Positions 27,097 to 51,056 of a DNA stretch of 64,000 nucleotides are shown here, in pieces. Position 1 is the stretch's first letter. Every line of letters begins with the position of its first letter. Below the pieces are notes generated by a model. It saw only the letters and a program-made list of their open reading frames with translations. It did not search any database and had not been told where the DNA came from. The DNA comes from Methanobacteriota archaeon (GTDB lineage: Archaea; Thermoplasmatota; Thermoplasmata; RBG-16-68-12; JAFNFQ01). Made by a program: the position numbers and the translations under genes. Location of the stretch: assembly GCA_017885655.1 (NCBI GenBank), contig JAFNFQ010000026.1, positions 2,505-66,504 of the forward strand, in the 5' to 3' direction.

Positions 27097-27663
27097 ATGG
27101 CAAAGATCTCCAATGTCTTCGGCACGACTTTCAGCGGCAGGATAGGGAAGAAGATGATCGCCTCATCGTGGAAGGGGCACGAGTACATCCGCACCTACGT
27201 GAAGCCGCACAACCCGAATACCAGGAACCAGCGAAGGGCGAGGGGGCGGTTCGCCGCGGCCGTCGAGGAGTGGCAGGGGTTCTCCGGCGTGCAGCAGGAG
27301 TTCTACGACAGGATCGCCGAGAGGATGAGCGGGTTCAACCTGTTCATCAGCAGGTACGTGAAGGCGGTGCGGGATGGAGAGGAGCCGGAGACGCCGGTGG
27401 AGATGAGGTGGAAGACCGCTGGCGGGGGGCTCATCGAGGACGGCGACCTGATAGTCATGGCGGGGAAGCGCGAGGTGTTCAGGGTCGGCCTGGGTGAGGG
27501 CAGGGCGGAGGTCGCGCTCACACAGTCGGACTCACCCTACTTCTTCGTACTCAAGAATGGAATGGCGAGGGAGGAGGTACTGGAGATCAGGGACCTGGCA
27601 AAGGCGGGAGTCCCCAAGGTGCTCGAGAGCAGGAAGCTGGGAATAAAGCTGGTGGCATACTAG
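27097..27663 (+). CDS. hypothetical protein (188 aa)
   Basis: Internal ATG 27097 (MAKISNVFGTTFSGRIGKK…) chosen over the track start 26908, whose upstream part lies in a promoter-like region. Good codon usage. Confidence 0.45.
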   Translation: MAKISNVFGTTFSGRIGKKMIASSWKGHEYIRTYVKPHNPNTRNQRRARGRFAAAVEEWQGFSGVQQEFYDRIAERMSGFNLFISRYVKAVRDGEEPETPVEMRWKTAGGGLIEDGDLIVMAGKREVFRVGLGEGRAEVALTQSDSPYFFVLKNGMAREEVLEIRDLAKAGVPKVLESRKLGIKLVAY

Positions 27664-34964: not shown

Positions 34965-35520
34965 GATAGACTTCTCCTACGCCCAGACCGGGTCTTCCCG
35001 CACGGTTATGGGACTTGTCTACATCCGCGTCGATGCTATCCGATTCCACGCCGATCTAACGAGGACGGTTGCGGACCTCCCCCCGACCGTTCCTGAGTCC
35101 TCCTCGATTCTGACGAACCCCGCCTCGATCGTTGCGGAATCGCCCTCGATCCGGGTGGACCCTGCCTCGGTGTAGGAAGACCTCTCCTACGCGTAGGAAT
35201 TGTCCTCCTACAGCGGGACGGACATTTCCTACATCCGAATGGAACTCTCCTACGTGTAGGAGGACTCCATCCGGGTCGTCTACACCCCATCAGACCGGGG
35301 ACAGGTTTCTCCTACGTGTAGGAGGACCTTGCCCGAACATAGGAGGCTCCCTCCTGCGTGTAGGAACATGTCTCCTACGTGTAGGAGGACTCCGTCCAGA
35401 CGCGATTCGGGCCGTCAGCATGGTTTAGACCCTGGTCAGAGTGAGAACGACCTTCTCCTACGTGTAGGAGGACTCCTCCTCGGTGTAGGAGGACCTCGCC
35501 TACATGTAGGAAGATTCCGT
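34965..35520. repeat. array of >=12 copies/half-sites of an imperfect palindromic motif CTCCTAC-N3-GTAGGAG(GAC)
   Basis: Seen directly. Full copies at ~35183-35200, 35245-35266, 35307-35328, 35350-35366, 35372-35393, 35455-35476, 35477-35494, 35498-35518, plus half-sites. Lies between the stop of the 35680 gene and the start of the 34883 gene. Confidence 0.7.
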
Positions 35521-35679: not shown

Positions 35680-38600
35680 TCATCCACCGAGCAGCCAAGT
35701 TGCGTCCGAGGAGACGTAAATCCAGTATCCGCGGCCTGGGGACATCATGTCGTCGCCGCCCAGGACTTTGAGGTTGTAAGGAGGAGCGGCAGGGTCTTCT
35801 CCCTCGATTCGCACGACAGGCAGGCCCGCCAGCGCGTCCGACACTGTCCGTGGAGTGAGGCTGGAATAGCCGACTAGATTCCAGCCCGCCTTCAACATGA
35901 TCGTGTATCCATTCGGCACCGTCCCCGTCACCGTGAGCTGACCTGGCCCAGAACTGCCGATCCACAATCCCATGTCGTTGCCTATTCCCACTGAATCGCG
36001 GGGGCCGATCATCGAGAATATCTTCCAAGGGCTCACCGCGTCGAGTTCATCGTAGTATCGCATGTATGTGAAGTTGGATGGTATGTTCGTGAGAGTCGCG
36101 AGCACGGACGTAACAGCAGGATCCTCGATGAGCAACGGGATCGAGATGAGGTTGTGCCCGGTCAGCGCGATTTTGTACGCACCCTGCTGGTTGGAAGGCG
36201 CGGTCGAAGCAAAGGGCGTGTGCGCGATCACATAGCAGAAGACATTCCTCGGGTCGCCCTGTCCGCGGCCAGCCAAGGTCAGCGACCTCACGCTGGCGGG
36301 TGTGTCTGCGACATTGACGTAGCCGACTCCGCTTCTATCATAGACATCCCCGCACATGACCGTGTATCCGTTCACAAGATTGGTCGACCAGTCGTGCACG
36401 GGGTAGCTCCAGGTCAACTTCACGTCCTCGTAGAGGGCTCCGGACAGCTCCGCCTTCAACGTAGGAGGCGGCAACTGCAGGACCTTGGCGATTATGTCCT
36501 TGTCGCCGTAGCCATTCCTGTCAGACTCCCAGACGAGCATCGCGCCCCCTGAGCCGGTCCCCGCGATCTTGACCTGCTCATCGGAGCGGGCATCTTTTGT
36601 AACCTGCAGGTCCGGCGTCCAGGCGGCGCCGTCGAAGACTTTCAGGAAGATGTCCTTATTCCCGGTCCTGTCGCTCTCCCATGCCATGAGGACGTTTCCC
36701 GTGCCGTCCGTGGAGATCGCGGGCTTCATATCCTCGCCAGGTTCGGTCGTGAGCCTGATGTCGTTCGACCACGATGTGCCGTTGAGGTATTTCACGTACA
36801 GGTCCTTCTCGCCGTCCCTGTCGCTCTCCCAAACGACGATAAGGCTTCCGCGCGAGTCGAAGGTCGCGACGGGCCTGACGTCTTGCCCGGGGTTGTTCGT
36901 CAACCTCGCGGGCGCACTCCATCCAGATCCGTTATTCTTGCTGTAGTAGATCTCGAACTGCGTCTGGCTGAGCTCGGATTCGTAGAACGCCCAGATCGTG
37001 CCGGACGGCGACACCGTCAGGTAGGCACCGCCCCACCAGCCTTGGTTTCCCGCTCGGTTGTCGACTACCTGCTCGCCGCTCCAGGAGGTCCCGTTGAACG
37101 ACCTGGCGGAGATGTTCATGTCCTGATAGGGGATGTTGTACATCTGCTGCCCATGGGAGTAGAGGTCGAAGTGCGTGTGCCTGAACGCCGTCCAAAGCGT
37201 GCCGTCTTGGGCGACCGCCACTCGCGGCGCCTGGTCGGCGTTGTCCTTCTCGACCGCCTGGGAGAAACGATACGGGGCCTGCCAGCCGCCTGACGAGTGG
37301 TTCAGGGCCCACAGGTCGAACTTCTGGCTCCAGTAATAAATGCCGTTCTTCGTCGTGATGAACTTGTCATACTCGACGATATTGCTGGAGAAGATCAGCT
37401 GTACGTCCCCGTTAGGCATTGCGGCGAGGGCGGGCGCGCTCGTCCGCTTCATTCCCGATGTGAGCTGCTGGACGCCAGACATTGTATTCCCATCATAGAC
37501 CCTTGCGAACATGTCGAAGTCATCCTTTCTGACGAAAGTGTGCCACGCCACCCAGATGTCGCCGTTGGCATCGGTCACGAGGTCGGGATCCATGTCGTTG
37601 TATGTTGACTCCGAGAGTATCCAATCCCCGCTCCATGCCCTCCGCGTGGCTGTGATTTGAAACGTCCTGCTAGCGACGTTGTTGTCTTCGTCGGTCTCCG
37701 CTACCGTGTTCCCCCGATCCACCGCCACGAAGATCGTCCTCGCCCCACTTATGCCCACTGTGCTCCAGAGGGCGCTCGCACTGTAGACGCTCCCGGCCGG
37801 AATCGACGGGATCACGTAAGTCGTGTCAATCTTCGTGCCACCAGCCGACGGATCGCCATCGAAGAACTCCACCTGGACGTTGCTCGCGGTCTTGAACCCG
37901 GTGTTCCACACGTTGGCGAGAACCCAGACATCCTGTCCCTGCCCGGGGTCCGATGGATCGGTCGTGATGTCGATGGGGCGGAGCGTGAGATCGGGATCGC
38001 TGTCCAGAATCAACGGGTTCTTCATCTTCGCGGCGATCGAATCATAGAGCGCGGCGGAATGGTCGTACGGCAGCTCCAGCACCAGGGTCTCCCTGCTCCT
38101 GTGGTCCATGGCGGTCATCGGGACCTGCAGGAACCCGCCCGCCGTCCCGGTCTGCGAGAGGTACGTTCCGCCGTATCCGTAGCCGCCTGCGGTCGCATCG
38201 GTGGCGGCGCGGGTGACTAGCATCCCCCTCCCGATCCGCCCGTCCTCTCCCGGGATGAACGGGTAGTAGCTCGTGTTCCCGCCGGCCCACGGATACATCT
38301 CGCCTGAATATTCGTCCCTGTACGCGTACCTCGCGAAGTCGGGCACGTAGCGGAATATCGAAGCGTTGGCGGAAGGGTTGGAGACGACGTACCATCCGTA
38401 GAAGTCGCTGGAGTAATTCCTGATCACATATTGCCCGTCGTTGCCGTCCTGGTCATAGTAATACCTGTACGAACCGTTCTGCAGGGGCTGCATCGTGTTC
38501 GCGTGTCTCTCGGGCAGAGAGTATCCCTGGTTCGCATAGAACTCCAGGGTCCCGTTGTTGATGCCGATCGCTATGTCCTCGAGCCCGTCGCCGTTCAGGT

Positions 38601-40356
38601 CGCCGAATTCCGGCGCACTGTAGTCGGCGTCATAGTACCCCGGCCCGCGGACGTTGTTGAACATGGCGGGGTAGAGCTTGGTGAATCTCGGCTCCGAGTT
38701 GTTGCCCTCGTTCTGGAAGTAGACGAGGGTGCCGAAGCTCGTGTAGTTCGTGCCTGAGACGAAGTCAACATTTCCGTCACGGTTGACATCGGCGATTGCG
38801 GGAGTGCAGTAGTAGCCTAGTTTCAGTGTGTTGCCATGGTTCAGATAGCTGAAGGTCAGGTCGTCCAACGAGAATTGTGGGAATGCCGCCGTGCCGACAT
38901 TCTTGTAATAATGGAAAATGCCGCTGGCGAACCCGATGAGGAGGTCCAATGTCCCGTCTCCATTGAGGCCCGCCAGCTCTGGCGCAGCTTCCTGGACATT
39001 GGCGGCGGCAAGCACGCCCGTCAGTAGGGTATCATCTCGGGTCCATGCGGGCATGAAGGCGTTTCCAGTGTTCCTGAACGCAATCAGGCTCCCGTTTTGG
39101 AGGCCGACCACCAGGTCCAGATCCCCGTCTCCATCGAGGTCGCCAAGGGTGGGCTTGGTGTTTGCATCCCAAGGCCCGCCGGTCGGCGTGAGGTTCAAAT
39201 CGCGTGTGAATGCGGGATTCGTCGGACCGCCCGTGTTGTTGAACCCGGTCAAGTTCCCGTCCGCCGAGCCCACGATCAGATCGAGGTCCCCGTCGCTGTC
39301 CAGGTCTCCCAGCGCGGGGGCGCTCCGGTTCCCAACTTCCACCTCCCGGAACTCATGCCAGTCGAGCGCCCAGTTGAGGGACGTGGTGTTTGCCCATTGC
39401 CTCGTGTGGTCAGGCGTCCCAAAGATGTACTCGTAATTGCCGTCCCCCGCCAGGAGAAGCGACGTCTCCATGAGGAAGCCGTTGTGGTTGTAGAACTTCT
39501 CGTTGACCTTCTTCGAGACATAAGCGTCAATCATCGAGTTGTTGTTGTAGAAGTTGACGGTGAGGTCCGCCCAGATGACGTCAGTGTCCTTCAACCAGGA
39601 CGAAGTCGCACCGTAGCCCCATTGAGCTGAATACGGGCTGTGGTAGGAAAGATGGACCGAGACCATGGCGCTGTTCACATCCGCCACGAGAGAGTCCGGT
39701 GTCCCCCATCCCATCTGGAAGTTCGTCTGGTCCAGCGAGAGCTGGTCCCCGCCGACCCGGACGAGTATCCCGCTCTGCGCTTCGTATGGATATGTGGTGT
39801 GATCGTAGTACACCCTGATGCCGGTGGTATAGTAGTTGATGGAGTTGTCCGTGGTTAGCATGTACGTCCTTCTGTCCGTCACATTCCCATCGGTGACGGT
39901 CACAGCCGTGAACCCGATGCTGCAAGTCATGTCCCCCTTGAGGGCGGTCTTCTCACCCGCATTTATGAAGTAGCCCTTCCTCTCGCCCGGCGCGAAACTG
40001 TCTTGGAAAGCAATCCGCATCCTGTGGATGTAGCCGCTCGGGTACAGTTCAACGGTAGAGTTCAGGGGACCGGACAGGACTTCGCTGCCATCGGATTGGC
40101 GGCGTACTGTGAAATGGGTGGAATCTGTGATTGTTGAATCCGGCAGAGTCAAGTTCATCTGGATGACCTCATCGGGCCGGTCGATCGTCAGGGTGTTGGT
40201 TACATTCAGGGCGAACACGGACGAGGAGGCTGCGGGCATCGGGAGAGTACCGCCAGAATCCCCGCCAGAGCGCATGGACACGGGGATCAGGAAAAGAGAT
40301 GCGATCGCGACGGCGCAGACAATCTCTGATACTCGGGAGAACGAAGAGCGGTGCAT
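35680..40356 (-). CDS. giant secreted/surface protein (1558 aa), paralog of the 30150..34883 gene
   Basis: Collinear similarity to the downstream gene from N-terminus (NVTNT…NRPDEVIQMNLTLPDS…LSGPLNSTVELYPSGY) to C-terminus (GYW…SSDATW…GG). Same FG-GAP and PD40-like repeats. Confidence 0.85.
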   Translation of the reverse strand: MHRSSFSRVSEIVCAVAIASLFLIPVSMRSGGDSGGTLPMPAASSSVFALNVTNTLTIDRPDEVIQMNLTLPDSTITDSTHFTVRRQSDGSEVLSGPLNSTVELYPSGYIHRMRIAFQDSFAPGERKGYFINAGEKTALKGDMTCSIGFTAVTVTDGNVTDRRTYMLTTDNSINYYTTGIRVYYDHTTYPYEAQSGILVRVGGDQLSLDQTNFQMGWGTPDSLVADVNSAMVSVHLSYHSPYSAQWGYGATSSWLKDTDVIWADLTVNFYNNNSMIDAYVSKKVNEKFYNHNGFLMETSLLLAGDGNYEYIFGTPDHTRQWANTTSLNWALDWHEFREVEVGNRSAPALGDLDSDGDLDLIVGSADGNLTGFNNTGGPTNPAFTRDLNLTPTGGPWDANTKPTLGDLDGDGDLDLVVGLQNGSLIAFRNTGNAFMPAWTRDDTLLTGVLAAANVQEAAPELAGLNGDGTLDLLIGFASGIFHYYKNVGTAAFPQFSLDDLTFSYLNHGNTLKLGYYCTPAIADVNRDGNVDFVSGTNYTSFGTLVYFQNEGNNSEPRFTKLYPAMFNNVRGPGYYDADYSAPEFGDLNGDGLEDIAIGINNGTLEFYANQGYSLPERHANTMQPLQNGSYRYYYDQDGNDGQYVIRNYSSDFYGWYVVSNPSANASIFRYVPDFARYAYRDEYSGEMYPWAGGNTSYYPFIPGEDGRIGRGMLVTRAATDATAGGYGYGGTYLSQTGTAGGFLQVPMTAMDHRSRETLVLELPYDHSAALYDSIAAKMKNPLILDSDPDLTLRPIDITTDPSDPGQGQDVWVLANVWNTGFKTASNVQVEFFDGDPSAGGTKIDTTYVIPSIPAGSVYSASALWSTVGISGARTIFVAVDRGNTVAETDEDNNVASRTFQITATRRAWSGDWILSESTYNDMDPDLVTDANGDIWVAWHTFVRKDDFDMFARVYDGNTMSGVQQLTSGMKRTSAPALAAMPNGDVQLIFSSNIVEYDKFITTKNGIYYWSQKFDLWALNHSSGGWQAPYRFSQAVEKDNADQAPRVAVAQDGTLWTAFRHTHFDLYSHGQQMYNIPYQDMNISARSFNGTSWSGEQVVDNRAGNQGWWGGAYLTVSPSGTIWAFYESELSQTQFEIYYSKNNGSGWSAPARLTNNPGQDVRPVATFDSRGSLIVVWESDRDGEKDLYVKYLNGTSWSNDIRLTTEPGEDMKPAISTDGTGNVLMAWESDRTGNKDIFLKVFDGAAWTPDLQVTKDARSDEQVKIAGTGSGGAMLVWESDRNGYGDKDIIAKVLQLPPPTLKAELSGALYEDVKLTWSYPVHDWSTNLVNGYTVMCGDVYDRSGVGYVNVADTPASVRSLTLAGRGQGDPRNVFCYVIAHTPFASTAPSNQQGAYKIALTGHNLISIPLLIEDPAVTSVLATLTNIPSNFTYMRYYDELDAVSPWKIFSMIGPRDSVGIGNDMGLWIGSSGPGQLTVTGTVPNGYTIMLKAGWNLVGYSSLTPRTVSDALAGLPVVRIEGEDPAAPPYNLKVLGGDDMMSPGRGYWIYVSSDATWLLGG

Positions 40357-43248: not shown

Positions 43249-44448
43249 ATGCCCTCGCCCGTGAAGAAGTACCGCTTCGGTTGCTCCGGCTGGTCCTACG
43301 ACGAATGGATCGGCCCCTTCTACCGCTCCGAGTCCGAGAGCAAGCTGGAGGCCTACTCAAGGGTCTTCGACACCGTCGAGATCAACAGCACCTTCTACCG
43401 CCCCCCTGAGACAGGGATGGTCTACGGCTGGGCGAGGAACAGCCCCGAGGGGTTCGTCTTCGCCGCCAAGGTCCCCCAGACTGTCACTCACGACAAGCTG
43501 CTTGACGTGGAGAAGGGCGCCGCCACGGAGCTTGCGAACTACTGCGAACTGATGAGGCCCCTCCGCGACGCTGAGAAGCTCGGTCCGTTACTGCTGCAGC
43601 TCCCGCCACGCCTGCGGTTCGAGGCGAAGCACATCGACGCCTTCCTGAGCACCCTGCCTGACAGGTACCTGTTCGCCTTGGAGCCGAGGAACAAGTCGTG
43701 GATGGTCCCAGAGGCTTTCGACCTCCTCAGGAAGCACAATGTCGCGTACACGGTCGTGGACGAGCCCCTGCTCCCGGGCGATGTCCACGTCACCGCGGAT
43801 TTCTCGTACTTCCGCTGGCACGGGCACGGCGACCAGCCCTGGTACGACTACAGGTACAGCCTCGGCGAGCTCAAGGAGTGGGTCCCCAAGGTCGAGGACG
43901 CCGCCTCGAAGTCTGAGACGGTCTACGGATTCTTCAACAACCATTTCCACGGATACGCGCCGGAGAACTGCATCCAGATCCTCGAGATGCTCGGCGGCAT
44001 CGGGCCGGAGCAGCAGAAGGCGATGAAGCGAATCGAGGAGTTCAGGCACAGTTTCGCCATCGAGCGGCGGGGGTCGGGAAGAGGCGTGACCCTGGAGGAC
44101 TTCTCCGAGACACCGATTGCAGACCCGGAGCTTGACCCCATCCTTTCCAAGTTCCTCGGCAGTGCGAGACTGGACAGGGCGAAGCGGATTGCATCGACCG
44201 AGGTGAGCATCAACGACGAGGGGACCTCGATAGCGGCGAAGGTGAAAGACTACAGGATTACCCTCGACCTCTCAGCCAAGAGGATCGAGCACGACTGCGA
44301 CGACTGGGCGAAACGGATCGCGGGGAAGGAATTCTGCAAGCACGTCGGCAAGTTCTTCATAATGCTCCCGAGGGCGAGGGCTCTATCAATCCTGGAAGAG
44401 ATGAGGAAGGCCCTCGACGCGTGGACATTCGCCGTCAGAGAGGGCTAG
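43249..44448 (+). CDS. DUF72 (UPF0759) family protein with ~150-aa C-terminal extension; paralog of the 40400..41326 gene
   Basis: MPSPVKKYRFGCSGWSYDEWIGPFY…VFDTVEINSTFYRPP; 399 aa. Confidence 0.75.
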   Translation: MPSPVKKYRFGCSGWSYDEWIGPFYRSESESKLEAYSRVFDTVEINSTFYRPPETGMVYGWARNSPEGFVFAAKVPQTVTHDKLLDVEKGAATELANYCELMRPLRDAEKLGPLLLQLPPRLRFEAKHIDAFLSTLPDRYLFALEPRNKSWMVPEAFDLLRKHNVAYTVVDEPLLPGDVHVTADFSYFRWHGHGDQPWYDYRYSLGELKEWVPKVEDAASKSETVYGFFNNHFHGYAPENCIQILEMLGGIGPEQQKAMKRIEEFRHSFAIERRGSGRGVTLEDFSETPIADPELDPILSKFLGSARLDRAKRIASTEVSINDEGTSIAAKVKDYRITLDLSAKRIEHDCDDWAKRIAGKEFCKHVGKFFIMLPRARALSILEEMRKALDAWTFAVREG

Positions 44449-45194
44449 TACATCACCGAGCCGCCATTGACGAGCAACGTTGTCCCGGTTATCCAGTCCG
44501 AATCCTTCGACGCAAGGAAGCTGACCACTGCCGCGATGTCCTCCGGCTTTCCGATCCGCCTCAATGGAATCTCGCGAGCACGCTGCCTCTTCTTCTCCGG
44601 AGTATCTCCCGCCAGGATGTCTGTGTCGACGGGCCCGGGGGCAATCGCGTTGACCGTGACATTGTACCTCGCGAGCTCCTGAGCCGCCGCCTTCGTGAAG
44701 CCGAGGATGCCGGCCTTTGATGCTGCGTACTCGGAACCGTGGTCTGTGCCCTTGATGGCGATCTGGCTGGAGATGTTGATGATGCGACCCCAGCCCGCCC
44801 TCTTCAGATATGGCATGGCTGCCTTGGTGCAATAGAAGACGCTGCTGAGGTTCGTGGCGACCCTCCTGTCCCATTCTTCCGGGGTCAGCTTGTCGAGGAC
44901 AGTCCGCTCGTAGATGCCCGCATTGTTGACGAGGACGTCGATCCTGCCGAACGACCTGACCGCCGTCTCGATGAGGCGTCTCGCCTCTCGCCACCTCGAG
45001 ACGTCCGCCTTGACGGAGATCGCTTTGCGACCACTTGCCTCGATTGCGTCGACGACTTGTGCTGCCTGCTTGTTGCTCCGTACGTAGTTGACGACGACAT
45101 CGAAGCAATCGGCGGCAAGGCGAAGCGCCGTTGCTTTGCCGATTCCGCGCGAACTGCCCGTGATGAGCGCAATACCCGGCATCGATACCACCAA
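44445..45194 (-). CDS. SDR-family oxidoreductase (3-oxoacyl-ACP reductase-like)
   Basis: TGSSRGIGKA Rossmann motif, NNAG, catalytic Y-x3-K (YAASKAG), PGPVDTD. Confidence 0.85.
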   Translation of the reverse strand: MVVSMPGIALITGSSRGIGKATALRLAADCFDVVVNYVRSNKQAAQVVDAIEASGRKAISVKADVSRWREARRLIETAVRSFGRIDVLVNNAGIYERTVLDKLTPEEWDRRVATNLSSVFYCTKAAMPYLKRAGWGRIINISSQIAIKGTDHGSEYAASKAGILGFTKAAAQELARYNVTVNAIAPGPVDTDILAGDTPEKKRQRAREIPLRRIGKPEDIAAVVSFLASKDSDWITGTTLLVNGGSVMY

Positions 45195-45414
45195 TGAGAC
45201 AAACCCGCCGCGGCATTTAACGATGATGAGGGCGGGACGGATGCTCTAGCTTTCAGCACATTCGAGCAATGCAGGATTCTCTTCAGTATCTGCGGGGGCG
45301 GGCATCCTCGTGGCTGGGAGCTTCCAGGCAGTGGCGTACCGCATTCGCAACCGCGGTCATCCACGCCTGAACAACAGCGACCACCGCTTGATCCGCGCCG
45401 GTTCTCCTCCATAT

Positions 45415-45990
45415 GGCACCGCATTCTCCCGCATCGGAATCGAATCAGTCCGCATTTCCCCGAGCTTCGGGCGCGTTTTCCGGGCATCCGTCCGCGTTTT
45501 CCCCGACCTCGGGCGCATTGTCCCAGGCTTGTGGCGCATTCTCCGCGATTCCCTCCGCATCTTCCCCGGCTGTGTCCGCGTTCTCGTATATACGTAACAT
45601 TGCTCCCGGACTCGCTCCGCGTTTTCCCGGGACAGAGGCGCATGCGCCCAGACCTCGGGCGCATTTTCCGAAGAGCGGTCCGCATTTTCCCGAGCACGCT
45701 CCGCATGCGCCGGAAGTCCATTCGCATTTTCCCCGACACCGTCCGCATTTTTTCCGGTTATCGATGACTCTCCTCGCATCCGCCAAGATGCTCCGACGAT
45801 CGGTTCCGGTTTTCCGCGAGGAGGTCCGCATTTTCCCGGGCTCCGTCCGCATTGTCCGAGACGCCGTCTAAGTCTCTTCAAATCACTGACAGTCTTCTTC
45901 GCAACCGCTCGGATGCCATGATACTCGATTCAGATTCTCTGAAGGATTGTCCACGTTTTCCCGGATGCCCTCCGCGTTTTCCCGCCGACG
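45415..45990. repeat. degenerate tandem repeat array, ~20 copies of a 13-17 bp core (G)TCCGCATTTTCCC(G) with ~21-30 bp periodicity
   Basis: Seen directly (for example 45449-45461, 45490-45505, 45614-45630, 45678-45692, 45721-45735, 45741-45756, 45825-45840, 45846-45858, 45950-45963, 45971-45986). Occupies most of a ~900-bp intergenic space upstream of the SDR gene. ORFs across it encode repetitive GKMR/HFP strings on both strands (artifact). Confidence 0.7.
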
Positions 45991-46118
45991 GCGTCAACCT
46001 GAATGCGGAATCTGGCCGTGTCGGGGGATTTGTCGCGTCAAAGATGAAGAGCTGATAAATCTCAGCCTAGAGCCGGGGGAGGACTCTGAACGATAGGAGC
46101 AACGCCTCTGCCCTCAGT

Positions 46119-47063
46119 TCACGATTCTCCGGTGAACTGTTGTATCACTCTTGCTTTCTTTCGGGGAGTCTGATAACCGAGACCGCTTCTGGAGAAGACC
46201 TTGACAATCGACGCCGAACACTTAGGACAAATCCTTGCGCCAGTCTCAGCGCGCACCTTCGGCATGTAGGAGCAACGCGTGCAATATTCCGTCCGTATGA
46301 AACCGAAAATCATGTTCAGATAAACCGTCGAGGTTCCATACGCAGGCATTTCCCGGTATCTCGGTGCGAACACGCCCGGGGGACTGAGAGAAAGCCCAAT
46401 TGCCTCACGGAAGCTATCGAACATCCGCTTCAACCTCTCCGCCTCCAGGCTCGCCAGTTCTTTCGATTCTGGAATCAGAGCGCGAAGATCCAGTCTTTTG
46501 AAGACCCAATTCGTGAAGAGCCCCTCATATGGAGATTCCCAGATGTCTCTCCGAAAGGAGAATTTCTCCAAGGGATGCAGGGCTGAGACATCGGCGTAGA
46601 AGTACTGGCCGTTGACAAATATGTCGTCAGGGCGCTTCCACGGAGTGTGAGCGAGAATCTGGGGAGGTCTAGGATCCAGCTCGATTGCGATGGGGATTTG
46701 CTGCCCGTCGACAGGGAGGAACCCTTTGGCGACGGGATGGAATGCGAAGCCGGACTTGCACAAGACCTGGGAAATCGCGATAGAATCATCCGACAAGAGA
46801 AAACGTTTGAACGTCACGTATCTGACGAGCTGTTGTCTCGTCTTGCGTATCATCCCTCCTGCAAGGGCAGCGCTGAATGCGAATGTGGTGCCGAAAAAGG
46901 AAGCAAGGAGGGCTCCATCTATGGCCGGATACATCATGGCACCAAGCATCACAGTTGCAGCTGCTGCGGCGGCGAGGATCCATACGAGAATCCGATAGAG
47001 CGAGAAGAGTCGCTCGCCCTCACTCCCAACTTCCTCGAGCCAATCCTCCAATACTGGCGGCAA
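46119..47063 (-). CDS. hypothetical membrane protein with C-terminal zinc-ribbon (CxxC…CxxC)
   Basis: N-terminal 2 TM (VWILAAAAAATVMLGAMMYPAIDGALLASFFG…). C-terminal CTRCSYMPKVRAETGARICPKCS. Confidence 0.5.
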   Translation of the reverse strand: MPPVLEDWLEEVGSEGERLFSLYRILVWILAAAAAATVMLGAMMYPAIDGALLASFFGTTFAFSAALAGGMIRKTRQQLVRYVTFKRFLLSDDSIAISQVLCKSGFAFHPVAKGFLPVDGQQIPIAIELDPRPPQILAHTPWKRPDDIFVNGQYFYADVSALHPLEKFSFRRDIWESPYEGLFTNWVFKRLDLRALIPESKELASLEAERLKRMFDSFREAIGLSLSPPGVFAPRYREMPAYGTSTVYLNMIFGFIRTEYCTRCSYMPKVRAETGARICPKCSASIVKVFSRSGLGYQTPRKKARVIQQFTGES

Positions 47064-47180
47064 TTCCTCCCCTCATGATGGGTCTGGTGTCAGACAAGAA
47101 GGGGGCGATTAATAAGACATTCGGCGATTCGACAGAAAGCCGAAAGCCTATTCCGATTCAGAGCGTTCACGGGGACCGTC

Positions 47181-48203
47181 ATGGGCGTCAATCTCACACC
47201 AGTCATTTCCCGCCATCAAGTCGATCTTGAGTACTTCCGCGGGAAGACCCTGGCGGTCGATGCCGCCATCGAGCTCTACCAGTTCCTCTCAATCGTTCGA
47301 CTGCGCGATGGCTCTCAGCTCATGGACTCGCATGGCCATGTGACCTCTCACCTTAGCGGCATCGTCTTCAGGACGACCCGCCTCATCGCGGACTACGGCA
47401 TCAACCCGATATTCGTCTTCGATGGGAAGCCACCGGACCTCAAAGCGGCGGAAATCGAGAAGCGGCGGGAGGCGAGGAAGCAAGCGCTCGCGGAGTACGA
47501 GAAGGCCAAGGCGGCGGGAGACATGGCCACCGCCTGGTCAAAGGTCGTGATGAGCTCCCGTCTCACGAGAGAAATGGTCGACGACGCGAAACGTCTGCTC
47601 GGCCTTCTGGGGATTCCGTTCGCGCAAGCTCCATCTGAGGGCGAGGCGCAGGCGGCCTCGATGGTTCAGCGCGGTCAAGCCTACACCGTGGCGGGAAAGG
47701 ATTATGATTCGCTCCTTTTCGGCTCTCCCCGCCTCGCGAGGTTCATCGCGCTGCAGAGCAGGGAATTCCTCCCGAGCATCGGCCGCTACCGCGTCAGCCC
47801 GCCGGAGATCATCGACCTGGAGGAGAACCTCAAGGCCATGTCCCTGTCAAGGAAGCAGCTGGTTGAAGCCGCCATTCTCGTGGGGACTGACTTCGATGAA
47901 GGGGTCAAGGGCATTGGCCCCAAGAAGGCGGTCGAGGCGCTGAAGAAGTGCGGCTCGATCGAGAGCCTGCCCGGCGCCATAAGAGACGAGCTCCCGCCAA
48001 ATTACGATGCGATCCGCGAATACTTCCTCCATCCCGAAGTCGACGAGAATCCCGCCATCGAGAAGAAGCGCATGGACTTAGATGCCGCGATCAAGTTCCT
48101 TTGCGGTGAGCGGGACTTTTCCGAACAGCGAGTGAGGAAAGCGCTGGAGCGGCTGGCGAAGACGGCACCTCCCGCAAGGACACTAGAAAGCTTCCTCGAT
48201 TGA
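47181..48203 (+). CDS. fen: flap endonuclease 1 (FEN-1)
   Basis: MGVNLTP…GKTLAVDAAIELYQFL…, XPG N/I domains, C-terminal PIP-like tail. 340 aa. Confidence 0.9.
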   Translation: MGVNLTPVISRHQVDLEYFRGKTLAVDAAIELYQFLSIVRLRDGSQLMDSHGHVTSHLSGIVFRTTRLIADYGINPIFVFDGKPPDLKAAEIEKRREARKQALAEYEKAKAAGDMATAWSKVVMSSRLTREMVDDAKRLLGLLGIPFAQAPSEGEAQAASMVQRGQAYTVAGKDYDSLLFGSPRLARFIALQSREFLPSIGRYRVSPPEIIDLEENLKAMSLSRKQLVEAAILVGTDFDEGVKGIGPKKAVEALKKCGSIESLPGAIRDELPPNYDAIREYFLHPEVDENPAIEKKRMDLDAAIKFLCGERDFSEQRVRKALERLAKTAPPARTLESFLD

Positions 48204-48221: not shown

Positions 48222-51056
48222 CTACTTGATCCTCTCCAGAGCGAACGCCCCGATTATGAGCGTCTTGTTCGTCGCCTTGTACCCGACCCAGTCCCGCGAT
48301 TGAACATCTCCGAGCCCCGCCACGGAGAACATCATCTTGTTCCCCTCGGACTTGAAGAGAATCGCCCCGTCAGCCAAGTGCTCGAGCGTCTCTATCTGCT
48401 GGTCGGTGTGCATGCCCTTCTCCAGCGTCATGAAGCTCAATTCCTTCGTCTGCCTGAGGCGGTTGACCAGCTGCTGCACGAAACCGACAGCCTTGCTCTC
48501 CTCCGTGTGAGTTGTGCTAGAGGACAGCGTGATGTAGGCCAGGCGGAAGTACGGGTGCTTCTTCTCCTTGAACTCCGCGTCTAGGAGGTCGATGACATCG
48601 AGAATGTTGGCGAAGTCCGTTGCGCCGTTGACCCGGTAGACGGCCCCGTCCTTCTTCGGCTTCGAGCCTGCCGGCAGTGTCCCTGACGCGTCTATCCACC
48701 GCACAAGCCCGAGCTGCTCGTACTCGATGAACGAGGGCAGCACCGGAGCGATCTCTTTCGCGATCTCCACCGGCGGCTTCGTCGTCGTCACGATGATGGC
48801 GGGGGCTCCCTTTTTCAAACCCTCCGCTACGAAGTTGTAGAGCAGGACCTCCTTGCCGACGAAGGCCGGTCCGACCAGGAGGACGCTCGTGTTCATCCTC
48901 AGGCCTCCGAAGAACAGGTCGTCCAGGCGGGCGATGCCGGTCTTCAGCTTGCCCTCGGCCGCCGCCGCCTCCTCTGCAGGGGCAACTTCTTCCCCCGCCG
49001 CCACTGCCAGGGTGCGCTCCTTCTCCTTCAGAGCGGTCTCTAGCGCCTCCATCTCCTTCTCCTTCTGGTAGGCGCGCCTGCGCAGCTCCTCCTCCCTCTC
49101 GCGGAGGCGCTTCTCCCTCAGCTCCATGGCCTTCTCCCGCTCCTTGTCGACCATGCCCGCGATCGGCGCCTGAGAGAGCGCCTTCTCGCGCCTGTCGAGC
49201 TCCAATATCCTAAGCTGCAGATCACTCTCCCTCTGCTCAAGCTCCTTCTCGTGTTCGGCCAGCTTCCTGTTCTTCTCGTTCAGTCCCCTGACCTCCTTGC
49301 TCAAGTTCTCTGATATCGACTTGGCCTTCTGCCTCTCGCCGCCGACATCGCCCTGCTGCCTCTTCAGCTCCTCCTGCGCCGCCACGACCGCCGCCTCGGT
49401 CTCCTTAATCGACCTGAACAGCTTGGAGTACTCGGACTCCTTGAGGTTGAGCCTGTCCCTCTCGGCCTTGACAGCGTTGATCTGCTGCTCCATGTGCTGC
49501 GCTCTCTGGGTCATCGACGCCTCGAGGTCTGAGAGCTGCTTCTGCCTGATGACTAGATCCTTTTCCCTGTCGGACAACTGCAGCCTCTGCTGCTGCAGCC
49601 GCGCGTCGGACCTCAGCTGCTCGTCCGCCTTGGTCTTGGTGTCCTTGTCCAGTCTGCGGAGCTCGACATCGAGCTTCGCCAGGTCCCTCTCCTTCTTCAT
49701 CACCTTGTCTTCCCAGTCCTTGATCTCGCGAACCTTCGTCTCCTGGTCCTTCGAGAGCACCGCCTCGAGCTCCTCGATCTTCATCTGCATCTCGCTCTCC
49801 CTGAGCTCGATGTTCTTCTCCGACTGTATCGTGTCGTTCCTCCGCTTCTCGATCGCCTCTTCCTCGACCTTGAGCCTCCTCTCCGATTCCTCGGCGGCAG
49901 ACGCCCTCTCATCCGCCTTCCGCAGCTTCTCCGAGATGTCTATCTCCTGACGCCTGAGCTCCTTCTCGCGCTCGAGCATCTTCAGCTCGCGTTCCTTGAT
50001 CTCGTCCTTCAGGCGCTCGACCTCGTCCTCCCTCTCCTTGAACGACTTCTTCCTCAGTTCGAGCTCCTCGGCCTTCGTCTGGACATCCACCTTCATCACG
50101 CTGAGCTGCCTTTCCAGCCCCTTCAGCTCCTTCCACTGCGCTTCGTACTTGATGTTCAGCGCCTCGGCGGCCTTCGTCTTCTCCGCTATCTCGTCCTCGA
50201 GGCCCCTCAGCGCTTGTTCTCTGGAATCGAGATGGGACTCCTGGGCCCTCATCGCCTTCTCCTTGTAGTCGATCGCCTGCTGCCGCTTCTGGTACTCCTC
50301 GCGGAGGATGGCGAGGTGGGTGTCCCCCGCCTTGACTATCTCCCGCTCTTGGGCTTCCGTTGCGGTTGCGATGATGAGGAGGAGAGAGCCGCTCAGCTCG
50401 ATCAAGAGAGCCCCGAACAGGTAAGCGAGGACGAGCCAACCCGTGTCAGGCGTCTGCATGCTGGGCATCAGGGTGAACAGGAAGAACAGCGGGAGGACTG
50501 CCGCGCACACGATGCTCGCGACCTTCCGCCTGCTCCTGCCCTCCCAGGTGGCGGCGATGGAAGCGAGCGTTAAGGAGATTGGAAGGACGGAGACCGGATA
50601 GACCCATCCGACATAAGGCAGTACGAATTGCCCGGCCACATGGAGTATGACAAGCACGAGCATCAGCGCGGAGATGACAACGGCGAGCGCGGTGAGGATG
50701 AAGTGACCGGAGTTCTTGTGGCCCACATACGGCCTCCACTTCTGGATCACGAGGGATACTGAGATGGCGAGACCGACGATGAGCGCGATGAGCCAGAGGA
50801 AGTAACCCTGCGTGAGGAAGGGAATGTCCTGGAACCCTCCGAGGGGGCTGACAGTCGCAAGTATCGCGTTCAGAGCGAGGGCGAGGGCGGAGTAGATGCC
50901 GAACATCTGCGCGGTGCGGCCCAGGCTAAGCTGAAGGAGGGCGATCTTCGACGAGTCCGAGCGGAGCTTCACGTCCTCCGCCCTGGTCGACCGCTCAGCA
51001 AGCTCGCGCTCCTCCGTGTCCGACGCAGCTTCAGAAGTCTTTCTTCTGGCCATCAA
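48222..51056 (-). CDS. 944-aa protein: N-terminal polytopic membrane domain, ~500-aa E/K/R-rich coiled coil, C-terminal KaiC/RecA-like domain with degenerate Walker A (GPAFVGKE)
   Basis: ~6 TM (aa 50-250). Heptad-rich region (…LKDEIKERELKMLEREKELRRQE…). C-terminus LDDLFFGGLRMNTSVLLVGPAFVGKEVLLYNFVAEGLKKGAPAIIVTT matches the KaiC/RadA-like pattern but has Glu in place of the Ser/Thr after GK. Confidence 0.75.
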   Translation of the reverse strand: MMARRKTSEAASDTEERELAERSTRAEDVKLRSDSSKIALLQLSLGRTAQMFGIYSALALALNAILATVSPLGGFQDIPFLTQGYFLWLIALIVGLAISVSLVIQKWRPYVGHKNSGHFILTALAVVISALMLVLVILHVAGQFVLPYVGWVYPVSVLPISLTLASIAATWEGRSRRKVASIVCAAVLPLFFLFTLMPSMQTPDTGWLVLAYLFGALLIELSGSLLLIIATATEAQEREIVKAGDTHLAILREEYQKRQQAIDYKEKAMRAQESHLDSREQALRGLEDEIAEKTKAAEALNIKYEAQWKELKGLERQLSVMKVDVQTKAEELELRKKSFKEREDEVERLKDEIKERELKMLEREKELRRQEIDISEKLRKADERASAAEESERRLKVEEEAIEKRRNDTIQSEKNIELRESEMQMKIEELEAVLSKDQETKVREIKDWEDKVMKKERDLAKLDVELRRLDKDTKTKADEQLRSDARLQQQRLQLSDREKDLVIRQKQLSDLEASMTQRAQHMEQQINAVKAERDRLNLKESEYSKLFRSIKETEAAVVAAQEELKRQQGDVGGERQKAKSISENLSKEVRGLNEKNRKLAEHEKELEQRESDLQLRILELDRREKALSQAPIAGMVDKEREKAMELREKRLREREEELRRRAYQKEKEMEALETALKEKERTLAVAAGEEVAPAEEAAAAEGKLKTGIARLDDLFFGGLRMNTSVLLVGPAFVGKEVLLYNFVAEGLKKGAPAIIVTTTKPPVEIAKEIAPVLPSFIEYEQLGLVRWIDASGTLPAGSKPKKDGAVYRVNGATDFANILDVIDLLDAEFKEKKHPYFRLAYITLSSSTTHTEESKAVGFVQQLVNRLRQTKELSFMTLEKGMHTDQQIETLEHLADGAILFKSEGNKMMFSVAGLGDVQSRDWVGYKATNKTLIIGAFALERIK

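What the first reader, a model, noticed from the sequence alone, without database searches (positions are those of the whole stretch)
45415..45990. ~570-bp degenerate tandem-repeat array (core TCCGCATTTTCCC, about 20 copies, ~21-30 bp period) upstream of the SDR gene
A long, non-coding intergenic region is filled with a reiterated 13-17-bp core at roughly two-helical-turn spacing. This gives repetitive pseudo-ORFs on both strands (GKMR…/…HFP…). It lacks CRISPR features: the spacing is irregular, there are no cas genes, and the repeats are too short. It could be a minisatellite, a multi-site binding platform for a nucleoid or regulatory protein, or an origin-recognition-box-like cluster, although no Orc1/Cdc6 gene is adjacent.
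Basis: seen in the sequence. Interest (0 to 1): 0.6.

Follow-up and report, generated by a model that had tools for sequence, protein, structure and literature searches.

The report
Amplified start-site box repeat array
About 20 in-phase copies of a 21-bp unit, copied from the ribosome-binding/start-codon box of the neighbouring dehydrogenase gene, fill a non-coding gap in an uncultured Thermoplasmata archaeon; selection keeps the 13-bp box while the spacers drift, so it is most likely a multi-site binding platform, not an origin, a CRISPR array or a gene.

Summary
It has 20 recognisable units in a near-strict 21-bp register, with three 1-bp slips, all on one strand, at 45418-45990. The organism is an uncultured Thermoplasmata archaeon and the locus is chromosomal.

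The array is not coding: pN/pS is 0.4-1.5 in all six frames and there are no protein homologues. It shows no RNA structure signal. It is not CRISPR and not an ORB/origin cluster.

Comparison with about ten close relatives places it in a gene-flux hot spot between the SDR and FEN1 genes. Two lineages carry about 20 units, one carries about 4, and the others carry none.

Its right end is a decayed second copy of the SDR promoter/5'UTR. The first unit lies exactly in the column of the SDR ribosome-binding site and start codon, so the unit is an amplified start-site box.

Between lineages the 13-bp box diverges 12%. The 8-bp spacers diverge 25% and FEN1 fourfold-degenerate sites 33%. The boxes are therefore under purifying selection and the spacers are about neutral.

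Best reading, as inference: a same-face array of binding sites for a trans-acting factor. The main rival is a decaying relic minisatellite. Moderate interest.

The parts
45418..45990 (+). Repeat-bearing stretch as flagged. It holds 20 units of 21 bp. The 13-bp cores start at 45418, 45449, 45470, 45491, 45512, 45533, 45554, 45575, 45616, 45637, 45658, 45679, 45700, 45721, 45742, 45805, 45825, 45846, 45950 and 45971.
45352..45417 (+). Leader: unique sequence to the left of the array, ending in CCTCCATATGGCACCGCATTCTCCCGCATC. It is conserved in L251/L242. Its right part is conserved in L255.
   Evidence: Divergence from L251 over 45352-45447 is 15.6%, against 33% at FEN1 fourfold sites.
45448..45594 (+). 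Block A: seven contiguous 21-bp units.
45595..45615 (+). Degenerate unit that has lost one base (first register slip). The slip is shared with L251.
45616..45762 (+). Block B: seven contiguous 21-bp units.
45763..45824 (+). Conserved unique segment. It carries an 8-bp inverted repeat, CTCCTCGC (45770-45777) and GCGAGGAG (45816-45823), and one degenerate unit at 45805.
   Evidence: 91.7% identical to L242. Divergence over 45763-45866 is 11.5%. The local fold is not significant.
45825..45866 (+). Two well-kept units. The L242/L251 strain breakpoint and the L255 collapse junction both lie at this point.
45867..45949 (+). Unique tail segment with the palindrome TTCAGAttcTCTGAA (45929-45943). It is conserved in L251 and L255.
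45950..45990 (+). Two terminal units. On the minus strand these are the first units after the dead promoter copy.
45979..46038 (-). P2: a decayed copy of the SDR promoter/5'UTR module. The TATA-like box is mutated to GCCAGATT (46007-46016). Its RBS/start column coincides with the first repeat unit.
   Evidence: z 10-20 against shuffles; gap-free 85-column alignment.
45183..45232 (-). P1: the working SDR promoter/5'UTR. Its TATA-like box TTAAAT lies at 45215-45220.
44445..45182 (-). Short-chain dehydrogenase/reductase (SDR) gene. The start codon was chosen by alignment with relatives.
46050..46067 (-). Terminator-like hairpin plus T-run downstream of the 314-aa gene. It is conserved in L127.
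46119..47063 (-). Hypothetical membrane protein with a C-terminal zinc ribbon. The maximal ORF is 314 aa; sources call it 276-310 aa. It is one of the alternative cargo genes of the variable slot.
45222..47179 (.). Variable island between the SDR promoter and the FEN1 gene. Its content differs in nearly every relative.

Best explanation
**Shown.** The stretch is a non-coding, lineage-restricted 21-bp minisatellite module at window 45352-46038. It lies in a gene-flux hot spot between the SDR and FEN1 genes of an uncultured Thermoplasmata archaeon. It grew out of the SDR gene's own promoter-proximal DNA. Its right end is a decayed second copy of the SDR promoter/5'UTR. The repeat unit is the 21 bp around the SDR ribosome-binding site and start codon (minus-strand core CGGGAAAATGCGGA), amplified head to tail to about 20 copies. 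The array gains and loses whole units. The 13-bp box, the leader and one unique segment are under purifying selection, while the 8-bp spacers evolve at about the neutral rate.

**Inferred.** All boxes point the same way and are spaced 21 bp apart, which is two helical turns. The most likely mechanism is therefore an array of same-face binding sites that loads or titrates a trans-acting factor recognising this start-site box. That factor would most plausibly be a DNA-binding regulator acting at SDR-type promoters, so the array would work as an iteron-like platform or decoy. The factor itself is unknown.
For: **Anatomy and significance**

**Not coding**
- Substitutions against L242 fall 31/22/29 over the three codon phases.
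- pN/pS is 0.4-1.5 in all six frames. FEN1 gives 0.09.
- Three shared -1 slips change the frame.
- An exhaustive HMMER search of the six-frame pseudo-ORFs against 1.84 billion proteins gave three hits. All look like ORFs read across 21-bp DNA repeats, and one is the L242 copy.

**Distribution in relatives** (FEN1 in one 90% amino-acid cluster)
- About 20 units in the window and in L251/L242. The two copies are collinear at 77-83% identity and differ by two 21-bp indels.
- About 4 units in L255.
- No units in L127/L128, L256-258, L122, L123-125 and L126.

**Origin**
- The three right ends align without gaps to five SDR promoters, from the BRE/TATA region to the start codon.
- The SDR ATG column holds the first unit's ATG or ACG.
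- The SDR RBS GGCGGGAAGATG (L123) matches the unit's GGCGGGAAAACG / CGGGAAAATG.
- See (z 10-20).

**Selection**
- Within the array, box mismatches to the consensus are 34/182 and spacer mismatches 55/112, counted on the 14 contiguous units that were not chosen by motif (p = 6e-8).
- Between the window and L242/L251, boxes diverge 26/221 = 11.8% and spacers 34/136 = 25% (p = 0.002).
- FEN1 fourfold-degenerate sites diverge 33.1%. Against that value, boxes give p = 5e-7, spacers p = 0.13, the leader p = 0.002 and segment 45763-45866 p = 7e-5.
Against: - No candidate binding-protein gene travels with the element. Its neighbours differ in every lineage: the SDR and 314-aa genes here, the 126/140-aa and NosD genes in L251, and the 189-aa and NosD genes in L255.
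- Most close relatives lack the element, so it is dispensable.
- The box is not enriched elsewhere in the 64 kb, so no regulon is visible.
- The selection test rests on two or three lineages. Recent recombinational exchange of the element would lower its overall divergence, although it would not create the contrast between box and spacer.
- The most conserved box position (CCGC) has changed to CCAC in 5 of 17 L251 units.
- No binding, transcription or phenotype data exist.
- A simple wedge model predicts no unusual intrinsic curvature.
Confidence: 0.5

Rival explanations
1. Relic minisatellite with no present function. Slippage or unequal recombination amplified the SDR start-site segment after a promoter duplication, and the array is now simply decaying and being deleted.
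For: - The element is absent from most close relatives and collapsed to about 4 units in L255.
- The promoter copy at its end has a mutated TATA box in 3 of 3 lineages, while 6 of 6 working SDR promoters keep GTTAAAT.
- The start codon inside the unit is ATG in only 13 of 20 units.
- It has no partner gene, no RNA structure signal and no curvature signal.
- It sits in a hot spot of indels.
Against: - Neutral decay should degrade box and spacer alike. In fact boxes are 2.6 times better kept within the array (p = 6e-8).
- Boxes diverge 2.8 times more slowly than FEN1 fourfold sites between lineages (p = 5e-7), while spacers do not differ from neutral.
- The difference holds for G/C positions alone: 11/119 in boxes against 34/136 in spacers, counted.
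- Spacers are near saturation while orthologous units are only 17% apart. The long array is therefore much older than the lineage split, yet it has kept its boxes and its 21-bp phase.
Confidence: 0.25
2. RNA-level function. The array is transcribed on the minus strand, either from P2 or by read-through from the upstream gene. It would give a leader or sponge RNA with about 20 SD-AUG-like boxes (GGGAAAAUGCGGA) that soak up ribosomes or an RNA-binding regulator.
For: - The unit is derived from a translation-initiation region and lies directly downstream of a promoter copy.
- All units are co-oriented.
- In the window and in L255 the array sits upstream of a minus-strand gene.
Against: - The TATA box of P2 is mutated in all three lineages.
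- A terminator-like hairpin ends the upstream gene before the array.
- AUG is replaced by ACG in 6 of 20 units.
- There is no fold signal on either strand, with z of +0.96 and -0.04. There is no Rfam match and no compensatory change.
- In L251 the gene to the left is convergent, so the array cannot be its leader.
Confidence: 0.12
3. Mobile MITE-like element with an internal minisatellite, of the BrickBuilt type, which inserted upstream of the SDR gene.
For: - It has a leader-array-tail architecture with conserved flanks.
- It is strictly intergenic and shows presence/absence polymorphism at one site.
- Its repeat units have conserved and variable halves, as in BrickBuilt (PMC4596501).
Against: - Every copy found lies in the same SDR-FEN1 slot in the same orientation.
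- There are no terminal inverted repeats and no short target duplication.
- No second copy of the leader or tail occurs in the 64-kb window or in relatives' loci.
- There is no match in plasmid, phage or viral collections.
- The 'flanking repeat' is a roughly 55-bp promoter duplication, not a transposition footprint.
Confidence: 0.05
4. Decayed or cryptic protein-coding heptad repeat, since 21 bp equals 7 codons.
For: - The period is a strict multiple of three.
- Frames are open on both strands.
- A conserved ATG lies in the leader.
- Within the box, positions 5, 8 and 11 are the more variable ones.
Against: - Three -1 slips shared by the lineages change the frame, while the nucleotide box stays the same.
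- pN/pS is about 1 in every frame and there is no codon-phase bias.
- The leader ORF is 152 aa here, 164 aa in L242 and 19 aa in L255.
- There are no protein homologues.
- The invariant position 2 would be a fourfold-degenerate site in the best frame.
Confidence: 0.04
5. Replication origin or ORB-like Orc1/Cdc6 binding cluster.
For: It is a cluster of 13-bp boxes containing TTCC in a long intergenic region. Superficially this resembles the mini-ORB clusters of Methanothermobacter and Pyrococcus (PMC1904270).
Against: - The mini-ORB dyad TTCC-N4-GAA occurs zero times in the array.
- All units share one orientation and there is no AT-rich unwinding element. GC is 0.57-0.60 and there is no skew switch.
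- No Orc1/Cdc6 was found among the window ORFs scanned.
- The element is absent at the same site in most close relatives.
- The unit's descent from the SDR start site explains its sequence.
Confidence: 0.02

Closest known systems
BrickBuilt minisatellite/MITE of Porphyromonas gingivalis (Klein et al. 2015, PMC4596501)
   Same: - Intergenic array of units of about 21-23 bp with no separate spacers.
- Each unit has a conserved half and a variable half.
- The array is flanked by conserved 'leader' and 'tail' sequences.
- Total length runs from about 0.1 to 1 kb depending on unit number.
- Annotation pipelines call spurious ORFs across it.
   Different: - BrickBuilt is dispersed (19 loci per genome) and has small terminal inverted repeats and promoter activity. 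This element is known from a single locus, has no inverted ends, and ends in a dead promoter copy.
- This unit can be traced to a neighbouring gene's start site.
- The host is an archaeon, and the array is old and degenerate rather than 0-11% mismatched.
Plasmid iterons and partition-centromere repeat arrays, such as R6K, RK2 and P1 iterons and parC-type centromeres. The general features are from my own knowledge. Iteron biology is reviewed in PMC5397158 and PMC6090056.
   Same: - Direct repeats with a conserved box of about 13-19 bp at about 21-22 bp phasing (two helical turns).
- All repeats are in one orientation.
- Many copies.
- Spacers are free to vary.
   Different: - There is no adjacent Rep/ParR-type gene and no replicon context. 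The locus is chromosomal, near the ribosomal-protein operon, SecY and FEN1.
- There is no similarity to plasmids or phages.
- Twenty copies is at the high end.
- Binding was not tested.
Archaeal mini-ORB clusters at oriC (Matsunaga et al. 2007, PMC1904270)
   Same: Multiple 13-bp boxes that contain TTCC, clustered in an intergenic region of an archaeon. Cooperative binding to arrays is reported for Methanothermobacter Cdc6-1.
   Different: - The conserved TTCC...GAA dyad is missing.
- There is no neighbouring Orc1/Cdc6 gene and no AT-rich element.
- The boxes have uniform orientation.
- The position is not conserved among relatives.
Tandem repeats of Borg extrachromosomal elements (Schoelmerich et al. 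2023, PMC9879509)
   Same: Archaeal head-to-tail nucleotide repeats that occur in intergenic regions and change by whole units.
   Different: - Borg repeats are perfect, recently formed and rapidly evolving, and are described as virtually absent from host chromosomes.
- This array is chromosomal, old and degenerate in its spacers, with a selectively kept box.
Bacterial VNTR/minisatellite loci in general (my own knowledge)
   Same: Copy-number differences between close lineages arise by gain or loss of whole units. Assemblies break inside the array.
   Different: Typical VNTR units are near-identical and show no contrast in conservation between box and spacer.

Membership tests
CRISPR array | Near-identical repeats of about 23-50 bp | tested here: not met
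   The conserved part is only 13 bp and is itself degenerate, with 17-19% mismatch to the consensus.
CRISPR array | Unique spacers of about 26-72 bp between the repeats | tested here: not met
   The variable part is 8 bp and the units abut at a 21-bp period.
CRISPR array | cas genes or a leader nearby | tested here: not met
   No Cas family appeared among the window ORFs scanned with Pfam. The neighbours are the SDR gene, a Zn-ribbon membrane protein and FEN1.
Archaeal oriC / ORB cluster | ORB or mini-ORB boxes with the TTCC...GAA dyad | tested here: not met
   TTCCNNNNGAA occurs 0 times within 45418-45990. The consensus is taken from PMC1904270.
Archaeal oriC / ORB cluster | Adjacent orc1/cdc6 (or whiP) initiator gene | tested here: not met
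   No AAA+ initiator appeared among the window ORFs scanned.
Archaeal oriC / ORB cluster | AT-rich unwinding element flanked by inverted boxes | tested here: not met
   GC is 0.57-0.60 across the region. All 20 units are on the + strand.
Archaeal oriC / ORB cluster | Position conserved among close relatives | tested here: not met
   The element is absent from the same slot in L127/L128, L256-258, L122, L123 and L126.
Iteron / centromere-like binding array | Three or more direct repeats with a conserved box, phased at about two helical turns | tested here: met
   Twenty units at 21 bp, all in one orientation, with the box conserved and the spacer free.
Iteron / centromere-like binding array | Cognate binding-protein gene (Rep, ParR/ParB-like) next to the array | tested here: not met
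   The flanking genes differ in every lineage and none is shared. The only nearby HTH candidate is a sub-threshold PadR-like 140-aa protein, found in L251 only.
Iteron / centromere-like binding array | Carried on a plasmid, virus or other replicon | tested here: not met
   The context is chromosomal, near the ribosomal-protein operon, SecY and AspRS. There is no plasmid, phage or viral match.
Iteron / centromere-like binding array | Specific protein binding to the repeats | not testable with these tools
   This needs EMSA, DAP-seq or ChIP.
Minisatellite-bearing MITE (BrickBuilt type) | Intergenic tandem units of about 20-23 bp with conserved and variable positions | tested here: met
   Compared with PMC4596501.
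Minisatellite-bearing MITE (BrickBuilt type) | Conserved leader and tail flanking the repeats | tested here: met
   Leader and tail are conserved across the window, L251 and L255.
Minisatellite-bearing MITE (BrickBuilt type) | Multiple dispersed copies in one genome | tested here: inconclusive
   No second copy exists in the 64-kb window or in relatives' loci, and all copies found lie in one slot. The rest of the genome could not be searched.
Minisatellite-bearing MITE (BrickBuilt type) | Terminal inverted repeats and/or target-site duplication | tested here: not met
   The ends carry no inverted repeats. The flanking direct repeat is a diverged promoter duplication of about 55 bp.
Coding tandem (heptad) repeat | One reading frame maintained through the array | tested here: not met
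   Three -1 register slips change the frame, while the nucleotide box is unchanged.
Coding tandem (heptad) repeat | Purifying selection at the protein level | tested here: not met
   pN/pS is 0.4-1.5 in six frames, against 0.09 for FEN1. Codon-phase counts are 31/22/29.
Coding tandem (heptad) repeat | Homologous proteins elsewhere | tested here: not met
   No Pfam family matched. The indexed search found none. The exhaustive search found only ORFs that look like read-throughs of 21-bp DNA repeats.
VNTR / minisatellite (generic) | Head-to-tail units whose number differs between close lineages by whole units | tested here: met
   There are two 21-bp indels between the window and L251. L255 has about 4 units against about 20.
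Structured non-coding RNA | Fold more stable than shuffles, covariation, or an Rfam match | tested here: not met
   z is +0.96 and -0.04. The local fold gives z of -1.0 and -0.2 with 0 compensatory pairs. Rfam gave nothing above E of about 0.7.

The most novel reading that the evidence does not exclude
Tandem amplification turned a gene's own promoter-proximal/start-site box into a selectively maintained chromosomal decoy. About 20 same-face copies would titrate or nucleate the factor that normally acts at that box. This could work on DNA, as an operator sponge for an archaeal transcription regulator. If the array is transcribed, it could instead work on RNA as a sponge for ribosomes or a translational regulator. 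Dosage would be tunable by gain and loss of whole units. This would be an archaeal, chromosomally born analogue of iteron or decoy-site arrays.
Probability: 0.3. Interest if true: 0.6.

Novelty: new variant of a known kind. Interest (0 to 1): 0.4.

Why it matters
If the inference holds, this is a rare case where both the birth and the maintenance of a multi-site binding array can be read directly from sequence. A 21-bp piece of a working promoter/start site was duplicated and amplified, and its box has since been kept by selection while everything between the boxes drifted.

That would give a concrete, testable example of how regulatory decoy or iteron-like arrays arise de novo in archaeal chromosomes. 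It would also give a defined 13-bp bait for fishing out an unknown DNA- or RNA-binding factor from an uncultured Thermoplasmata lineage.

If the array is instead a relic, it still documents a hot spot of promoter duplication, gene swapping and minisatellite dynamics beside a core replication gene. It also warns that such arrays produce spurious ORFs and contig breaks in metagenome assemblies.

Tried and rejected
1. **Genome-collection scan too loose.** The pattern had 16 specified bases.
3. **Cross-taxon family rejected.** Many unrelated organisms (GC 33-74%) carry 21-bp tandem repeats that contain CGCRTTTTCC, including perfect arrays in Tannerellaceae MAGs. Their flanks share nothing beyond what the pattern demanded. 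I treat this as selection by the query, not as a family.
4. **'Mobile element in two different loci' withdrawn.** L242 first looked like a different context. The longer contig L251 showed it is the same SDR-FEN1 slot.
5. **Six-frame pseudo-ORF searches.** The indexed search found nothing. The exhaustive search found three ORFs that look like read-throughs of 21-bp DNA repeats.
6. **Structured RNA.** There was no signal on either strand, locally or in Rfam.
7. **Intrinsic DNA curvature from phased T-tracts.** A wedge model, with parameters recalled from memory, gives an end-to-end/contour ratio of 0.89-0.95 against a window mean of 0.91. This is not unusual.
8. **Leader as a remnant of SDR coding sequence.** It looked plausible by eye, but local alignment gives z of about 0.
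9. **Similarity to plasmids, phages and viral contigs.** None found.
10. **Defence-island reading of the slot genes.** No PADLOC hits.
11. **The box as a generic ribosome-binding/start motif of this genome.** Only 3 copies lie outside the array.
12. **Sigma-70-type promoter scan.** Empty, and not applicable to archaea anyway.
Full report
**1. The observation**

Window 45195-46118 is a 924-bp gap between two minus-strand genes. One is a short-chain dehydrogenase (SDR, 44445-45182). The other is a hypothetical 314-aa membrane protein with a C-terminal zinc ribbon (46119-47063).

- TCCGCATTTTCCC with up to 3 mismatches occurs 14 times on the + strand between 45418 and 45983. The other 16 hits in the 64 kb are scattered on both strands, at or below the chance level of 20.6.
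- Printed in 21-base lines, the region is visibly in register.
- It has two runs of seven contiguous units (45448-45594 and 45616-45762), further units at 45418, 45805, 45825, 45846, 45950 and 45971, three single-base register slips, and two unique interruptions.
- Self-identity is 0.475 at lag 21 and 0.433 at lag 42. Shuffles give 0.271 +/- 0.018.
- An independent JGI contig (L250) is 100% identical to window 45657-47304 and ends inside the array.

The period, however, is a strict 21 bp and not an irregular 21-30 bp.

**2. Organism and setting**

- FEN1 homologues are annotated as coming from uncultured Thermoplasmata archaea.
- The window carries a ribosomal-protein operon, SecY, AspRS, geranylgeranyl reductase, ThyX and FEN1. 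It is core chromosome.
- No tRNA or Rfam family is present.
- No Orc1/Cdc6, integrase, transposase or Cas family appeared among the ORFs scanned.

**3. What it is not**

*Coding*
- Substitutions between the window and the homologous copy fall 31/22/29 over the three codon phases.
- pN/pS is 0.4-1.5 in all six frames of every segment. FEN1 between the same two lineages gives 0.09.
- Three -1 slips, shared by the lineages, change the frame while the nucleotide box stays the same.
- The pseudo-ORFs have no Pfam family.
- A concatenated six-frame translation found nothing in the indexed search.
- The exhaustive search found three hits in 1.84 billion representatives. All look like ORFs read across 21-bp DNA repeats, and one is the homologous copy itself.

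*Structured RNA*
- Fold z-scores are +0.96 and -0.04.
- A conserved 8-bp inverted repeat at 45770-45823 gives a local fold of no significance and no compensatory change.
- Rfam gave only E of about 0.7-0.8.

*CRISPR*
- The box is 13 bp and the 'spacers' are 8 bp.

*Origin*
- The mini-ORB dyad TTCC-N4-GAA (PMC1904270) occurs zero times in the array.
- All boxes point the same way. GC is 0.57-0.60 and there is no skew switch.
- Close relatives lack the element, as described in the next section.

*Intrinsically bent DNA*
- A wedge model gives ordinary values.

*Plasmid, phage or virus DNA*
- No match was found.

**4. Comparative anatomy**

Contigs of relatives were fetched through FEN1 and through the slot genes. 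Their FEN1 proteins fall in one 90% cluster, and FEN1 DNA is 88-91% identical to the window. All keep the order DUF72 - SDR - [slot] - FEN1 - KaiC-like ATPase.

| Relative | Content of the slot | Repeat element |
|---|---|---|
| L256-258 | nothing (191 bp) | absent |
| L122 | 164-aa gene | absent |
| L123-125 | 182-aa gene | absent |
| L126 | NosD/PKD protein | absent |
| L127/128 | homologue of the 314-aa gene, with only 140 bp to the SDR gene | absent |
| L255 | homologue of the 182-aa gene, short element, NosD gene | about 4 units |
| L251 | 140-aa and 126-aa genes, full element, NosD gene | about 20 units |

Sources for the table are.

- The element of L251 is collinear with window 45352-45985 at 77% identity and differs by two 21-bp indels.
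- L242/L171 is a strain variant of L251. It is identical up to the unit pair that corresponds to window 45825-45866 and then has a different right flank.
- L255 keeps the leader, one hybrid unit, the unique tail and the two terminal units.

Unit number therefore ranges over 0, about 4 and about 20 among close relatives. Breakpoints fall at units. All copies lie in the same slot in the same orientation relative to FEN1.

My earlier impression of a second, unrelated locus was wrong, and I withdrew it. There are no inverted ends, and no other copy of the leader or tail exists in the data held.

**5. Where the unit came from**

Read on the minus strand, the right end of the element in all three lineages is a copy of the SDR promoter/5'UTR module.

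- Eight sequences were aligned: five working SDR promoters and the three element ends. They align over 85 columns without a single gap, from the BRE/TATA region to the SDR start codon.
- Local alignment scores are 10-20 standard deviations above shuffles.
- The column of the SDR ATG holds ATG (L255) or ACG (window, L251) of the first repeat unit.
- The SDR ribosome-binding stretch (GGCGGGAAGATG in L123, GGCGGGAAAAATG in L126) matches the unit's GGCGGGAAAACG / CGGGAAAATG.

The 13-bp box TCCGCATTTTCCC is therefore the reverse complement of a ribosome-binding site plus start codon plus the next codon. The array is that 21-bp piece amplified head to tail.

The window holds two copies of the module. 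P1 (45183-45232, TATA-like box at 45215-45220) drives the SDR gene. P2 (45979-46038) bounds the array. GTTAAAT is exact in 6 of 6 working SDR promoters and mutated in 3 of 3 P2 copies (GTTGAAT, GTCGAAT, GCCAGATT). P2 is therefore probably dead.

A resemblance, seen by eye, between the leader and SDR coding sequence did not survive testing.

**6. Selection**

*Within the array*
- The test used only the 14 contiguous units, which were not chosen by motif.
- Box positions mismatch the consensus at 34/182 and spacer positions at 55/112 (p = 6e-8).

*Between orthologous units of the window and L242/L251*

| Sequence class | Divergence | p against FEN1 fourfold sites |
|---|---|---|
| Boxes | 26/221 = 11.8% | 5e-7 |
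| Spacers | 34/136 = 25% | 0.13 |
| Left unique part, 45352-45447 | 15.6% | 0.002 |
| Segment 45763-45866 | 11.5% | 7e-5 |
| FEN1 fourfold-degenerate sites (neutral yardstick) | 33.1% | - |

- Boxes against spacers give p = 0.002.
- FEN1 pS between the same lineages is 0.39.
- Boxes evolve almost three times more slowly than the yardstick. Spacers are indistinguishable from it.
- The contrast holds for G/C positions alone: 11/119 in boxes against 34/136 in spacers, counted.
- Spacers within the array are near saturation while orthologous units differ by about 17%. The long array is therefore much older than the split of these lineages. The short form in L255 is best read as a collapse between the first and the nineteenth unit.

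**7. Mechanism**

*Shown*
- The module is non-coding.
- It derives from the SDR start-site box beside a duplicated promoter.
- Its length changes by whole units.
- It is present in some relatives and absent in others.
- Selection acts on the box, the leader and one unique segment.

*Inferred*
- Twenty co-oriented boxes at exactly two helical turns, with neutral spacers, are the footprint expected of an array of same-face protein-binding sites.
- This is the logic of plasmid iterons and partition centromeres, which is general knowledge. Iteron literature includes PMC5397158 and PMC6090056.
- The box comes from the +5 to +20 region of an archaeal promoter, where repressors commonly sit. A natural candidate is therefore a DNA-binding regulator of SDR-type promoters, with the array acting as a loading platform or decoy.

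*Against this reading*
- No partner gene travels with the element.
- The box is not enriched elsewhere in the window.
- Most relatives do without the element.
- The test rests on few lineages.

I give this reading 0.5.

*Rivals*
- Relic minisatellite: 0.25. It is favoured by the dead promoter, the sporadic distribution and the ATG-to-ACG changes. It is disfavoured by the box/spacer contrast.
- Minus-strand RNA with about 20 SD-AUG-like boxes: 0.12.
- BrickBuilt-like mobile element: 0.05.
- Decayed coding repeat: 0.04.
- Origin: 0.02.

**8. Comparison with known things**

- *BrickBuilt.* In architecture the closest described object is the BrickBuilt minisatellite/MITE of Porphyromonas gingivalis (PMC4596501). 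It has a leader, tandem units of about 23 nt with conserved and variable halves, and a tail, and it is always intergenic. This element is not a member of that family. It is known from a single locus, has no inverted ends, has a different host domain and has a traceable local origin.
- *Iterons and centromere repeats.* In likely mode of action the element resembles these arrays, but it fails the membership features that could be tested: a neighbouring cognate gene and a replicon context.
- *Borg tandem repeats.* These are perfect and young (PMC9879509), whereas this array is old and degenerate.

I class it as a new variant of a known kind.

**9. Verdict**

This is a real, unusually regular and evolutionarily informative intergenic repeat. 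It has a clear origin and a selection footprint, but no demonstrated function. Interest is 0.4.

Noticed in passing
window 35310-35520: At least six copies of a 16-19-bp perfect or near-perfect palindrome, TCTCCTACGTGTAGGAGGA, some at 21-bp spacing. They lie in the gap between two giant minus-strand ORFs (30150-34883 and 35680-40356) whose homologues in relatives carry FG-GAP/CARDB domains. They look like a cluster of operator sites.
   Followed up: partly
window 21020-21583 and 21647-22213 (+): Two tandem genes for Ras-family small GTPases (Pfam Ras, E 6e-33 and 8e-38) in a Thermoplasmata genome.
   Followed up: no
window 45222-47179; L122, L123, L126, L127, L251, L255, L256: The slot between the SDR promoter and FEN1 is a hot spot of gene flux. 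It is empty in L256-258. Elsewhere it holds unrelated genes of 164 aa, 182/189 aa or 314 aa, a NosD-like beta-helix protein of 674-836 aa, or 126-aa plus 140-aa genes. None hits a defence family.
   Followed up: yes
L039 190-430, L060 5410-5640, L051 6560-6600, L092 4900-5357: Termite-gut-style Tannerellaceae MAGs carry perfect 21-bp tandem arrays at several loci. Their units are AGCCGCATTTTCCGGCTACTT, GGTCTCCGCGTTTTCGGGAGA and GGTCGCCGAACTTTCCGGCCG, each with a small hairpin potential. They are probably BrickBuilt-like elements. Their likeness to the window's box is what the search pattern selected for.
   Followed up: partly
L251 about 2290-2340; L255 5268-5300; L256 about 1355-1385; window 26944-26982: A short 11-bp tandem repeat, CCACCGTAGGT (2-3 copies), recurs in the SDR-FEN1 intergenic DNA of several relatives. 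The window has a CTACGG-type 11-bp repeat upstream of 26908-27663.
   Followed up: no
L251 253-675 (+): A 140-aa protein with a sub-threshold PadR-like winged-helix match (E 1e-4, 22.6 bits) and a 126-aa coiled-coil protein lie immediately beside the element in the L251/L242 lineage only. The 140-aa protein is a possible but unsupported candidate binder.
   Followed up: partly
window 48222-51056 (-): A 944-aa protein with N-terminal membrane helices, a coiled coil of about 450 aa and a C-terminal KaiC/RecA-like ATPase domain. It is conserved next to FEN1 in all relatives.
   Followed up: no
window 7354-8097 (-): The ribosomal protein L32e ORF carries an N-terminal SAP-like domain (Pfam SAP_new25, E 2e-8). 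This may be a real fusion or an over-extended ORF.
   Followed up: no
L242 1349 / L251 2075: Two strains are 99.8% identical across the left flank and the array and diverge exactly at a repeat unit. One continues into the tail and the NosD gene, the other into a DUF5678 gene. This suggests recombination at the units.
   Followed up: partly
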